Positions 13,128 through 23,797 of a DNA stretch of 36,421 nucleotides are shown piece by piece. The stretch is from IMG/VR virus record IMGVR_UViG_3300020045_008977, positions 1 through 36,421 of that record. One strand, written 5' to 3'. Made by a program: the position numbers and the translations under genes. Source of the stretch: a virus. Lineage: Duplodnaviria; Caudoviricetes. Below the pieces are notes generated by a model. That model worked only from the letters and a program-made list of their open reading frames with translations. It was not told where the DNA came from and searched no databases. Position 1 is the stretch's first letter. Each line of letters starts with the position of its first letter.

Positions 13128-13144
13128 TTATTCACCTTTTTGTT

Positions 13145-13291
13145 ATCGGAGAGAGACAGGATTTTTAATACCTGTATGCAGAGTGCCGTTAGGATATTAT
13201 TTTACCGGATTTTCACCGTCCGCACCCTCAGTTTTGCTCTTGGCTCTGCGTTTAGGATTTCACTGCGTCTTATTCCGCCACTCTCTCCGAT
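13145..13291 (-). ncRNA. tRNA-like structured RNA with enlarged anticodon-arm region
   Basis: 11-bp terminal stem ATCGGAGAGAG/CTCTCTCCGAT, D-arm-like TGGCGGAATAAGACGC, T-arm-like ACAGG-10 nt-CCTGT abutting the acceptor strand. Confidence 0.55.
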
Positions 13292-13436
13292 TTTAAAGTA
13301 TTGCCGGCCTGTTCCCGGCTGTCAGATTTTCAGACTCGTCACCCGCATGCAAGATGCGCTAAGTGTTCTTTCGGTTTACTCCGGATTATAATAAAAACAA
13401 CATTTAATTTGTGAGGGCGTTGCCCTTGATACATAA

Positions 13437-18402: not shown

Positions 18403-18431
18403 TTGACAGATAATAATTAGCATAGTAGAAA
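18403..18431 (+). promoter_or_regulatory. Sigma70-like promoter of replication operon
   Basis: TTGACA-17 nt-TAGAAA. Confidence 0.65.
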
Positions 18432-18443
18432 TGTAACCAGATT

Positions 18444-18560
18444 AGAGAATAAATGCTGAATGAACCGCGGCACTTATTCTTTGGAATAACATAAGCCTCG
18501 TATTTCTTGCCGGTTCAACTCTTAATAGAGAGTGCAAGGAGTACGGGGCTTTTTATTTTT
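18444..18560 (+). ncRNA. Structured leader/attenuator 1 (hairpin plus bulged terminator with loop-bulge pairing)
   Basis: 15-bp stem with loop AATGAACCG; 18-bp stem with bulge CGGTTCA; T-tract. Confidence 0.7.
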
Positions 18561-18572
18561 AAGGAGAATATT

Positions 18573-18797
18573 ATGACATGGTTGAACTTCATGAAACAAT
18601 ATGATAATTCAATAGATGAAAAGGTTGCCGATTATCTTTTATTTAATGAAACCGCGTTTCCTTTTTCTGATTTAAAAATTACAACATATCAATTAAGAAG
18701 CGCTATCCGTGCCAGAAAAAATAATATACAAAGATGTGAGATATGCGGACAGAATTTAAATTTTCATAAATTCAATTGTTTGGAGCGTTTTCAATGA
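18573..18797 (+). CDS. 74-aa hypothetical protein
   Basis: AAGGAG RBS before ATG 18573; LLFNETAFPF motif, C-term CxxC. Confidence 0.7.
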   Translation: MTWLNFMKQYDNSIDEKVADYLLFNETAFPFSDLKITTYQLRSAIRARKNNIQRCEICGQNLNFHKFNCLERFQ

Positions 18798-18954
18798 TCA
18801 TTAAACTTAAAAAGGTTAAAAATGGAGATTGTTTTGATTGTGATGTTAGAGTTCTATCTAGAATAGTAAACATTATTTTATCAAATAAGCTAAATAATTT
18901 ATGCATGAAACAAGAGTGTGCTAAACATAGATTTATTTATAAACAGGTGAAATA

Positions 18955-19620
18955 ATGCAATATTTTAAACATATGACGGGGATGAGAAACGATTCTAAAA
19001 TAAAACGGGTTATAAATAAATATGGAATTGAGGGGTATGGAATTTATTGTATAATTATTGAATCCATAGTTGAAAGTATAACTACTGAAAATCCTATTCC
19101 CGAACTACATGAAACGTGCGAAGATTTAGCAGAATTCTATAACGGTAATACTGCAAAGATAAATGAAATAGTTAATTTTATGATAAATCAAGGGCTTTTT
19201 GAATTAAATGAAATAAACGGAAGAGTTCTTTGTAATAAAGTTTATAAATTTCTTGAACAGTCTCAAACCAGGTCAGAGGAGATAAAAAGGCTTATTAGTA
19301 GCTTTAAAACTGTCTCAGACAAAAATAGACTGTCTCAAACAAATATGATAGAACAAGAACAAGAACAAGAACAAGAACAAGAACCCAGAAAAAGATTTAC
19401 ACCTCCCTCTACTAATGATGTTTCTTTATATATTCAGGAAAAGAATTATAGTGTTGATCCTGAATGGTTTATAAATTATTATACTTCTAAAAATTGGATG
19501 ATCGGTAAAAATAAAATGTCATCATGGAAGTCTGCAGTTTCAACATGTGAAAGAAATAATATAAAATGGAAAAAAGAAAATAAATTTAAAAATAATAATT
19601 TTGAATGGCCGGAGTTATAA
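18955..19620 (+). CDS. Replication initiator (DUF4373/Lin1244-like N-terminus)
   Basis: YFKH....RND.KI......YG.EGYGIY; QE linker; C-term FTPPS..DV..Y, F..YY.S.NW..GK.KM..WK.AV; precedes dnaB. Confidence 0.8.
   Translation: MQYFKHMTGMRNDSKIKRVINKYGIEGYGIYCIIIESIVESITTENPIPELHETCEDLAEFYNGNTAKINEIVNFMINQGLFELNEINGRVLCNKVYKFLEQSQTRSEEIKRLISSFKTVSDKNRLSQTNMIEQEQEQEQEQEPRKRFTPPSTNDVSLYIQEKNYSVDPEWFINYYTSKNWMIGKNKMSSWKSAVSTCERNNIKWKKENKFKNNNFEWPEL
19257..19384 (+). repeat. Iteron-like repeats and (GAACAA)5 inside initiator gene; candidate origin
   Basis: ACTGTCTCA(G/A)ACAAA at 19309 and 19329, variant at 19257; GAACAA x5 at 19351-19380. Confidence 0.5.
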
Positions 19621-20892
19621 ATGAGCAATTATAAAATTGACGAAACACAAATGGCTTTAATCAGTACGGCTATTTTAAACAAAGAAAGATTTTTTGATCT
19701 TATGGAATACCCGGAAGACATATTTACTTATCCAATGTCAAACGTTTATACAGCTATGAAAGAACTGCATAATAAAGACATGGAGCTTGATCTTTATTCA
19801 ATAACAAATTATCTGCAGCATAACGACGATAAATTTAATACTGACTTTCTATTATCAATTTACCAGATGCCGACAGTAACAAATTATAAATATCTGCTTG
19901 AAACAGCTTTACATGTCCGGAATAAAAAAATTGTGGGGGATTATGCGACCGACCTTTTTAACCGCTGTCAATCCCGGGATCTGGAATATAAAGATTTTCT
20001 TGATCAGATTATAAATATTAAAGATTTAATCTCTGAACAATTCAATAAAAAATATGTTCCTCTCCGGGATGAGATGTATTCTTTACATACTGATAACGGG
20101 TTAAGATATTATAAAACCGGGATTGATAAGCTTGATGAAAAAATAGTGGGTTTGTTCCAGGGACGTTTTATAATAATTGCAGCAAGTCCAGGCGCCGGGA
20201 AAAGTACTCTTGTACGTCAAATCAGTTATAAAAAAAGATTCCTTTTCTTTACTCTTGAAATGACTAAGCAAGAGATTTTAGCTAATATTTTAATGCAGCA
20301 TTCCGGAATAGAATCGTGGAGAATTTTAGCTGATAAATTAACCGATAACGAAAAAGATATTATTGTCAAAGTTAAGAAAAATCTTGAACAGATAATGCAC
20401 TTCACTATTATAGATGATGTTTATGATATAACTCAAATTATAAATATAACAAAGTCAAAGCATAAAAAAGGAGAGATTGATGGGATGATTCTTGATTATA
20501 TCCAACTCTGCGGAGGGGCTAAAGGTGAAAATCAGAATATTAAAATTGGTTATGTTTCCCGGCAATTGAAAATGCTTGCTCAACAATTAAAGATTCCAGT
20601 TGTAGGATTGAGCCAGTTTTCACGGGGGAGCGATAAAGACGACCGGCAGCCGGAATTAACCGATCTTAGAGATAGCGGATCTCTTGAACAAGATGCGAAC
20701 TGTGTTATATTTCTGCATACGAAAAAAGAAGAGCGGTTAAAGGATGTATGCCCGATCAGTTTGATTGTTGCTAAAAATAGAGGAGGGCGCGTAGGGATAA
20801 TAAAAGATTTAGTATTTAAAAAGTCATTAAGTATGATTACAGATTTAGAACATGAAACGAATTTTGACAAAATGGGGTATATTCATGATTAA
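19621..20892 (+). CDS. dnaB: Replicative DNA helicase (DnaB family)
   Basis: AASPGAGKS, FTLEM, ILDYIQL, LSQFSR, DLRDSGSLEQDA, AKNRGG. Confidence 0.95.
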   Translation: MSNYKIDETQMALISTAILNKERFFDLMEYPEDIFTYPMSNVYTAMKELHNKDMELDLYSITNYLQHNDDKFNTDFLLSIYQMPTVTNYKYLLETALHVRNKKIVGDYATDLFNRCQSRDLEYKDFLDQIINIKDLISEQFNKKYVPLRDEMYSLHTDNGLRYYKTGIDKLDEKIVGLFQGRFIIIAASPGAGKSTLVRQISYKKRFLFFTLEMTKQEILANILMQHSGIESWRILADKLTDNEKDIIVKVKKNLEQIMHFTIIDDVYDITQIINITKSKHKKGEIDGMILDYIQLCGGAKGENQNIKIGYVSRQLKMLAQQLKIPVVGLSQFSRGSDKDDRQPELTDLRDSGSLEQDANCVIFLHTKKEERLKDVCPISLIVAKNRGGRVGIIKDLVFKKSLSMITDLEHETNFDKMGYIHD

Positions 20893-23042: not shown

Positions 23043-23071
23043 TTGACACCGGAGTTAATATTTTGTAGTGT
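23043..23071 (+). promoter_or_regulatory. Sigma70-like promoter
   Basis: TTGACA-17 nt-TAGTGT. Confidence 0.65.
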
Positions 23072-23086
23072 ATGTTTATTAAAGAA

Positions 23087-23202
23087 GATAAACCTGAACT
23101 CGTGACTTAGGCTTATCGTTTTAAAATCAACAAAGCCTCTTGTTTTTTCCGTCACGAAGCTGGGATCATTTCCAGTTGGAAATTACAAGGGGCTTTTTTA
23201 TT
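23087..23202 (+). ncRNA. Structured leader/attenuator 2 (same fold as leader 1)
   Basis: Stem with loop ACTCGTGAC; long stem with bulge GTCACGA; T-tract. Confidence 0.7.
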
Positions 23203-23212
23203 GAGGTATGGA

Positions 23213-23797
23213 ATGAATACAAGAGAAATTGCTTCAGCGGTAAACAAGAATGACAGAAGCGTTCAAAGATGGATAAAAACTCTTAGCGTCAAAGTGTCGT
23301 CAATAAACGACAAAATGTCGTCAAGCTCTCCGATGTCTCCGGCAGATTATAATCTTGTTGAAACATGTATGATAATTGAACAGGGGCTCGGTAAAAATGC
23401 CGCTGAAATATTTAGAATGAACGCCACACATGGGACAAAAGAAATAAGCGTTGAATCAAGACTTGATAGGCTTGAATCTTTACTGGAAAAAGTATTGATG
23501 GTACAATTGAATAATATAGTTGTCAAAGAACCAGAAAAACAACTTACTTTTAATGATGTCCCCGAAAAATCAAAACGTGCTGAACTCAGAGAAATAATAA
23601 ATAAATATACTGCTCATCGAGGCTGTAATCATATTGAGGTATGGTCACAATTATATCAACAAATATATTACAGAATGAATATAAACGTAAAACTGTGTGC
23701 TGATAATAGGGGAATGGATAAACTTGATTATATAGAAAAGGAAGGATTATTAAACGAAGTTCTTTCACTTGCTAAAAAACTATTTGAGGTAAAATAA
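23213..23797 (+). CDS. Antirepressor-like DNA-binding protein (N-terminal HTH, ORF6C-like C-terminus)
   Basis: MNTREIASAVNK..RSVQRW HTH; C-term R..L..II..Y...W..LY....YR...N......KLDYIE..G. Confidence 0.6.
   Translation: MNTREIASAVNKNDRSVQRWIKTLSVKVSSINDKMSSSSPMSPADYNLVETCMIIEQGLGKNAAEIFRMNATHGTKEISVESRLDRLESLLEKVLMVQLNNIVVKEPEKQLTFNDVPEKSKRAELREIINKYTAHRGCNHIEVWSQLYQQIYYRMNINVKLCADNRGMDKLDYIEKEGLLNEVLSLAKKLFEVK

What the first reader, a model, noticed from the sequence alone, without database searches (positions are those of the whole stretch)
23087..23202. Leader 2 has the same fold with a different, fully compensated 7-nt key
Seen: after TTGACA-17-TAGTGT lies stem GATAAACCTGA/TTAGGCTTATC, with the same A-C mismatch in the same ATAAA/CTTAT context as leader 1, and a 9-nt loop ending TCGTGAC (23100-23106). 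Then comes stem AAAGCCTCTTGTTTTTTCC/GGAAATTACAAGGGGCTTT plus T-tract with bulge GTCACGA (23151-23157) and an apical hairpin. Loop-to-bulge spacing is 51 nt versus 50 nt in leader 1. Primary sequence has diverged while pairing is retained, giving covariation within one genome. It precedes an antirepressor-like gene. Inference: a family of RNA switches with orthogonal 7-nt specificity codes.
Basis: partly seen in the sequence, partly recalled or inferred. Interest (0 to 1): 0.78.

Follow-up and report, generated by a model that had tools for sequence, protein, structure and literature searches.

The report
Lock-and-key terminator leader of phages
A 120-base folded RNA in front of this phage's antirepressor-like gene has a hairpin loop whose seven letters match a seven-letter bulge inside a predicted transcription-stop hairpin, and the two change together across related phages; it matches no catalogued RNA family and likely works as a self-limiting gate on early phage genes.

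Summary
23079-23204 folds into a 5' hairpin and a long terminator-like hairpin (z -5.7). The 9-nt loop's last 7 nt (23100-06) match the 7-nt bulge (23151-57). Eight copies (both window leaders, six metagenome homologues) carry five different keys, each perfectly compensated.

The design is widespread. In a viral-contig scan, 12 of 51 promoter-plus-long-terminator families carry their own key of 7 nt or more, against 3 of 2,550 cross pairings. They often precede antirepressor or replication genes. There is no Rfam match, and my searches found no paper.

It is not C4/CI (no downstream target, no separate antisense RNA) and not guanidine-IV (no conserved loop).

Best model (0.45, inferred): the loop-bulge kiss forms during transcription and blocks terminator closure, as reported for guanidine-IV; terminated leaders then kiss nascent ones in trans and favour termination. 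Trans action rests on one other family, where keys vary 40-80 times more than terminator arms. In this family keys vary no faster than the adjacent stem. Expression and termination were not shown. This scan has noted the class about 100 times.

The parts
23043..23071 (+). Leader 2 sigma70-type promoter (-35 at 23043-48, 17-nt spacer, -10 at 23066-71), predicted
   Evidence: sequence; a -35/-10 pair also lies upstream of 5 of the 6 homologues (L023 is cut off 10 nt upstream)
23087..23117 (+). Leader 2 5' hairpin (H1) with A.C mismatch 23092/23112; MFE extends it to 23079-23124
   Evidence: 8 of 15 pairs with two-sided change; mismatch and flanking 4-bp helix invariant in 8 of 8
23100..23106 (+). 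Key: last 7 nt of the 9-nt loop
23132..23196 (+). Long terminator-like hairpin: 5' arm 23132-50, bulge, apical hairpin 23158-77, 3' arm 23178-96
   Evidence: base invariant in 8 of 8 including a U.G pair
23151..23157 (+). Anti-key: 7-nt bulge, exact complement of the key
23194..23202 (+). U-tract (U6-A-U2), predicted termination site; the ribosome site (23203-07) lies outside the stem
   Evidence: sequence
23213..23797 (+). 194-aa gene, N-terminal HTH, weakly antirepressor-like; first gene behind leader 2
18403..18431 (+). Leader 1 promoter (-35 consensus, weak -10), predicted
18444..18556 (+). Leader 1: same fold; key 18461-67, anti-key bulge 18511-17, terminator stem 18493-18551
18573..20892 (+). 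Genes behind leader 1: two small ORFs, replication initiator (18955-19620), DnaB helicase (19621-20892)

Best explanation
The element is a promoter-proximal leader RNA whose 5' hairpin loop carries a 7-nt key that matches a bulge inside a predicted intrinsic terminator, and it likely acts as a self-limiting attenuator: the cis kiss would block terminator closure and let early transcripts read through, and terminated leaders would then kiss nascent ones in trans and favour termination. Steps. (1) Shown by sequence and covariation: the fold, the key/anti-key match, and its place between promoter and gene. (2) Inferred from anatomy: the long hairpin plus U-tract terminates transcription and releases an RNA of about 120 nt. 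[quoted passage not shown] (4) Inferred, weakest step: the finished, terminated RNA exposes loop and bulge, pairs with the same key on nascent leaders, removes the tether and so promotes termination. The result would be a timer or copy counter on antirepressor and replication genes that acts only on leaders with the same key, in the phage's own copies or in co-infecting kin.
For: Key pairs: 6 of 7 change on both sides in the alignment, 8 of 8 copies are perfect 7/7. Class-wide: 12 of 51 families have an own key of at least 7 nt (10 exactly 7) against 3 of 2,550 cross pairs and 0 of 51 direct repeats of 5 nt or more. The match does not extend beyond 7 nt in either window leader, as expected of a kiss. 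The ribosome site lies outside the stem in 8 of 8, so control is more likely at termination than at translation. A rough reach estimate says kiss and finished terminator cannot coexist in 10 of 30 elements. PMC11611296 (passages) reports that a long-range kissing loop prevents assembly of the terminator in guanidine-IV. For trans action: in family F336 (35 contigs) the key has 4 alleles, 35 of 35 compensated, pi 0.21 against 0.003-0.005 in the terminator arms; keys differ between copies in 5 of 5 multi-element records. Genes behind the elements include antirepressors and replication initiators, the genes that C4/CI RNAs guard in P1 and P4.
Against: No transcript, 3' end or read-through was seen. 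In the window's own family the key varies no faster than the upper H1 stem (pi 0.52 against 0.54), which cis covariation alone explains. For this family the reach estimate does not exclude kiss plus finished terminator (allowed at angles up to about 70-89 degrees; bulge-loop kisses are flexible, 28-111 degrees in PMC8457670). A 7-bp duplex is about -9 kcal/mol against about 17 kcal/mol for closing the terminator base, so the block would have to be kinetic. F336 contigs are related and not independent, its H1 stem was fixed by my pattern, and its apical hairpin and promoter region (pi 0.16) vary too. Two of the three G003 first keys differ by one base and cross-pair. In IsrK the short RNA acting in trans activates rather than represses. 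Several elements precede genes of other or unknown function.
Confidence: 0.45

Rival explanations
1. Cis-only attenuator. The kiss competes with the terminator and sets a fixed leak, or is tipped by a protein that binds the invariant helix around the A.C mismatch; keys drift neutrally and carry no code.
For: Key diversity equals H1 upper-stem diversity in this family. The lower H1 helix and mismatch are invariant in 8 of 8, and an A.C mismatch recurs in L038 and L044. A small DNA-binding-like gene ends just before the promoter in L018 and L034 (by eye).
Against: In F336 keys are polymorphic while terminator arms are almost frozen. Most other families lack the long H1 and the mismatch. A fixed leak needs no 7-bp tertiary contact.
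Confidence: 0.3
2. Opposite sign (IsrK-like). The cis kiss helps the terminator or is neutral, and the released RNA turns the downstream gene on in trans, giving positive feedback.
For: IsrK of Gifsy-1 is a terminated leader that activates its own read-through mRNA for an antirepressor-like gene (PMC4825925, passages). Kiss and terminator may coexist in this family.
Against: IsrK works by pairing with a downstream ORF; here the key recurs within the next 400 nt in 0 of 30 elements and the ribosome site is not sequestered. Coexistence is excluded by the rough estimate in 10 of 30 elements.
Confidence: 0.12
4. Classical nested antiterminator: key:anti-key plus a helix between the H1 3' arm and the terminator's 5' base replaces both hairpins.
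For: For leader 2, folding of 85-109-nt prefixes gives this structure as MFE; that helix is -7.9 kcal/mol.
Against: The helix is -5.5 in 2 and weaker than -1 in 5 of the other 7 copies, and leader 1 prefixes do not form it.
Confidence: 0.05

Closest known systems
P1/P7 C4, P4 CI and N15 CA RNAs (Rfam RF01695) with their leader targets (RF03163 c4-a1b1; RF01394 isrK/seqA)
   Same: Leader-derived RNA; 7-nt bulge complementary to a 7-nt site upstream in the same leader (P1 a1 is 7 nt); guards antirepressor or replication genes. The L041 elements even have two keys in the C4 order.
   Different: The anti-key lies inside the terminator hairpin itself. There is no separate tRNA-like RNA, no downstream a2/b2 or seqC copy (0 of 30; P1 and P4 have one), and no icd/kil ORF. 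Rfam finds C4, isrK and c4-a1b1 in P4, N15 and P1 but not here.
Guanidine-IV riboswitch (GGAM-1/mepA)
   Same: 5' hairpin loop kisses an unpaired part of the terminator hairpin; steric exclusion of the full terminator is the proposed and tested mechanism (PMC7736828, PMC11611296; passages).
   Different: Its loop nucleotides are highly conserved and form a ligand pocket; here 6 of 7 key positions vary with compensation. No transporter genes. No Rfam hit.
Gifsy-1 IsrK
   Same: Terminated leader RNA that acts in trans on its own read-through transcript, in front of an antirepressor-like gene.
   Different: IsrK activates translation by pairing with orf45; no such downstream complement here; no isrK match.
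Engineered branched kissing loop and the ColE1 RNA I-RNA II 7-bp kiss
   Same: Loop-bulge geometry and 7-bp length (PMC8457670, passages).
   Different: Structural likeness only; no antisense RNA from the opposite strand is indicated.

Membership tests
C4/CI/CA antisense RNA (RF01695) | Match to the C4 covariance model | tested here: not met
   No hit at E<=1 in the window; positive controls P4, N15, P1 score 69-79 bits
C4/CI/CA antisense RNA (RF01695) | 7-nt single-stranded bulge complementary to a site upstream in the same leader | tested here: met
C4/CI/CA antisense RNA (RF01695) | Second copy of the target downstream (a2/b2, seqC) | tested here: not met
   0 of 30 elements within 400 nt; leader 2 key occurs once on its strand
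C4/CI/CA antisense RNA (RF01695) | Two recognition elements (a' bulge and b' loop) | tested here: not met
   One key in all 8 window-type copies; two keys only in the L041 elements
C4/CI/CA antisense RNA (RF01695) | tRNA-like stalk with minor hairpin, cut out of the transcript by RNase P (processing recalled) | tested here: not met
   The stalk is followed directly by a U-tract and has one apical hairpin against two hairpins in C4 and CI; processing itself not testable
C4/CI/CA antisense RNA (RF01695) | Acts in trans to cause premature termination | not testable with these tools
   Indirect only (for; neutral)
isrK/seqA (RF01394) and c4-a1b1 (RF03163) | Match to the model | tested here: not met
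   controls hit
Guanidine-IV riboswitch | 5' loop pairs with an unpaired part of the terminator hairpin | tested here: met
   (bulge rather than apical loop)
Guanidine-IV riboswitch | Highly conserved loop nucleotides forming a ligand pocket | tested here: not met
   6 of 7 key pairs vary on both sides
Guanidine-IV riboswitch | Upstream of guanidine transporter or related genes | tested here: not met
Antisense-RNA attenuators of plasmids (pT181/pIP501 type; recalled) | Counter-transcribed antisense RNA from a promoter in the leader | tested here: not met
   No antisense promoter at a shared place in the 8 copies; none found for leader 2
Intrinsic terminator | GC-rich stem base directly followed by a U-tract | tested here: met
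   8 of 8 copies
Intrinsic terminator | RNA 3' ends at the U-tract | not testable with these tools
   Only contigs were available

The most novel reading that the evidence does not exclude
A widespread, protein-free and ligand-free class of phage attenuator in which one 90-130-nt RNA is antiterminator, terminator and its own trans-acting repressor. Its 7-nt key would be an addressable self/non-self code that times early genes, counts genome copies and sorts co-infecting phages into exclusion groups, also in phages without an integrase or CI-type repressor.
Probability: 0.4. Interest if true: 0.87.

Novelty: new variant of a known kind. Interest (0 to 1): 0.68.

Why it matters
RNA-based phage immunity is known from a few enterobacterial phages (P1/P7, P4, N15). 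If the model holds, a much simpler one-piece version is common: about a quarter of the promoter-plus-long-terminator families sampled from viral contigs. It would give a sequence-readable rule for which phages silence each other. It would also be a second natural case of antitermination by steric kissing, and a ready library of small, mutually independent RNA-triggered transcription gates. It can be tested directly with a 170-bp template and a laboratory polymerase.

Tried and rejected
Rfam: no match at either leader or at any key-bearing element. Window-type homologues outside metagenomes: the model R1 found none in the viral pattern loci (1+120+21), the 8 antirepressor loci or the 116 genome loci (best 38 bits against 101-127 for the training copies), none in 151 Spirochaetota genomes, and blastn found none in cultured phages. 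Elements of three other families (L336, L330, L552) were not found in cultured phages, nor L336 in E. coli. Expression: no RNA holder listed; the laid runs are contigs and say nothing on expression. One contig differs at bulge position 23156 but its partner position is not listed, so compensation could not be read. Seed-type targets: the 12 sites of the leader 1 key exceed dinucleotide shuffles but not an order-3 model (expected 6.6, rank 579 of 13,710); rejected. Nested antiterminator helix: leader 2 only. Antisense promoter: not conserved. Host chromosomes: 13 pattern matches in 401 Spirochaetota genomes, 0 with a 7-nt key, most with tRNA-like folds; 281,587 bases around antirepressor-like genes gave one weak 6-nt hit, not credible. 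A mis-set pattern missed family F336 and its 17 loci were not used. A second promoter pattern gave 1 filter hit in 26 matches, plus one sequence in 3 contigs seen by eye; a promoter-less pattern gave 1 in 125, so the one-in-four figure belongs to the first pattern only. My scanner did not report the P1, P4 or N15 systems. Literature searches listed no paper describing this architecture in phages; subscription papers are not covered, the supplement of PMC5737381 (c4-2 text) could not be read, and the candidate tables of PMC10690425 were not examined and may hold members.

Full report
Setting. The window is a 36.4-kb, 35.7% GC tailed-phage sequence with terminase, portal, capsid, tape measure, RecT/exonuclease, a replication initiator and DnaB. 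No integrase or CI-type repressor turned up among the 69 window ORFs scanned; two small regulators did (14418, 21873). The host is not established. The family of the downstream protein has matches in 10 of 401 Spirochaetota genomes, best E 9e-52, but no other phylum was searched.

Observation. Confirmed in every detail. Only two such elements exist in the window. Both lie inside the rightward early region. Leader 1 precedes the replication genes and leader 2 the 194-aa HTH gene, so each hairpin could also stop transcripts that come from upstream (inference).

Homologues. A pattern built on the shared stem ends gave 36 metagenome matches and 1 viral match. Six of the 36 are true copies: L010, L023 and L034 with the leader 1 key, and L014, L018, L031 with three new keys. 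With the two window leaders that is 8 copies and 5 keys, each with a 9-nt loop and a perfect 7-nt bulge complement. On the MAFFT alignment 94% of cells pair, 27 of 46 pairs change on both sides, and 6 of 7 key pairs do; one row (L031) is out of register by one column there. Invariant U.G and G.U pairs point to RNA of this strand, though the invariant A.C would be G.U on the other strand. The genes behind the copies differ: replication initiators (L023 by PHROG; L010 by eye), an Ant-type antirepressor (L018), the window's HTH family (L031, by its first codons) and a small unknown gene (L014). The leader therefore moves as a module.

The wider class. Phages that share the HTH family have the same logic in other folds: loop-to-apical-loop in L038 and L044, and three two-key elements in L041. 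I then scanned viral contigs for a consensus promoter followed by a long terminator, with no key in the pattern (120 of about 580 stretches returned). Of 120 matches 97 had a terminal stem and 25 a key of 6 nt or more. Clustered into 51 families, 12 had an own key of 7 nt or more, 10 of them exactly 7, against 3 of 2,550 cross pairings. Two other patterns gave far fewer (1 of 26 by filter; 1 of 125 without promoter), and host chromosomes none (0 of 13). L124 and L388 have the window's 5'-bulge topology. Downstream genes include antirepressors (L457), replication initiators or primases (L394, L044, L431, L330), ParB-like proteins (L390, L041) and several unknown or unrelated genes.

Cis or trans. 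For family F336, 43 matches were fetched and 8 without a terminator were dropped. The 35 left give 13 distinct elements and 4 keys, all compensated. Key diversity is 0.21 per site against 0.003 and 0.005 for the terminator arms. That is what a diversifying code would give, but the contigs are related and other parts of the element vary too. In 5 of 5 records with more than one element (window, G003, G004, G416, G426) the keys differ; the second G426 key is a 6-nt match. Against this, in the window's own family key diversity (0.52) equals that of the upper H1 stem (0.54). The key never recurs in the next 400 nt (0 of 30), so the only cognate trans target is another copy of the leader.

Mechanism. 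The anti-key is transcribed about 40 nt before the base of the terminator, so the loop can capture it first. A rough reach estimate says the kiss cannot coexist with the finished terminator in 10 of 30 elements, including F336 with a 0-1-nt linker; for the window's long H1 it is borderline. Guanidine-IV is the precedent: PMC7736828 proposes steric exclusion of the full terminator by a kissing structure, and PMC11611296 reports that a long-range kissing loop prevents terminator assembly (passages). Here no ligand pocket is conserved, so another input is needed. The simplest is the terminated RNA itself. This parallels P4, where CI RNA from the same leader pairs with seqA and seqC and causes premature termination (as summarised in PMC4825925). 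I put the whole model at 0.45, a cis-only attenuator at 0.3, the opposite sign at 0.12, a stand-alone small RNA at 0.08 and a nested antiterminator at 0.05.

Comparison with known systems. It works like C4/CI in its 7-nt bulge-to-leader pairing (P1 a1 is 7 nt) and like guanidine-IV in its predicted steric antitermination, but it fails membership of both (see Membership tests). Rfam finds C4, isrK and c4-a1b1 in the control phages and nothing at the key-bearing elements. That P1 and P7 differ in immunity through their C4 sequence is recalled, not read.

Literature seen. Passages of PMC4825925, PMC5737381 (supplement unreadable), PMC2864571 (supplement hits and list), PMC10690425, PMC8198154, PMC8457670, PMC11611296 and PMC7736828. 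Search listings only for the rest. None of these described this architecture in phages; the library lacks most subscription papers.

Earlier notes of this scan. 104 findings in at least 93 genomes hold the words kiss, terminator, phage and leader; I saw 16 rows. They are unchecked AI notes and not independent support, but they show that this window is one more member of a class the scan has met often. One of them led me to guanidine-IV.

Verdict. A real, conserved, uncatalogued RNA element and a member of a broad class. Novelty: new variant of a known kind. Interest 0.68; 0.87 if the trans-acting key is shown.

Noticed in passing
window 13146-13307 (-): GC-rich non-coding stretch ahead of the leftward genes with a weak manA-like Rfam match (20.6 bits, E 0.26, gathering 55); its two ends pair, but 13135-13400 folds no better than shuffles (z -1.4).
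   Followed up: partly
window 1-36421: No integrase or CI-type repressor found among 69 ORFs scanned; none either among the part of the ORFs scanned in G002, G004 and G426, although G426 has an RDF-like gene.
   Followed up: partly
window 19337-19394: Tandem 6-nt repeat (EQ repeats) inside the replication initiator gene.
   Followed up: no
L041 9882-9984, 10644-10746, 13036-13140: Three two-key elements (small loop to 3' bulge, second site to apical loop), the C4 a/b order fused to a terminator; a possible link between this class and C4.
   Followed up: partly
L041 3298-3361: Type II hammerhead ribozyme above the gathering score.
   Followed up: no
L018 212-391 and L034 (58-aa ORF before the promoter): The same small DNA-binding-like gene ends directly before the leader promoter in two homologues with different keys.
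   Followed up: no
L547, L550, L557-L560, L564, L565, L568: Promoter-hairpin-terminator family with the same 6-nt motif three times in direct orientation (two loops and the linker); no key; suggests protein binding.
   Followed up: no
L321, L323, L345, L358, L399 and about 10 more: Conserved promoter-hairpin-terminator small RNA family without a key; no Rfam match at the element in L358.
   Followed up: no
L330 1506-1629; L368 2049-2119: Betaproteobacteria-1 RNA 160 nt behind a key element, and an int-alpA RNA in another such locus.
   Followed up: no
window, 12 sites: The leader 1 key 7-mer is frequent in the genome, explained by a general CCG/CGG excess.
   Followed up: yes
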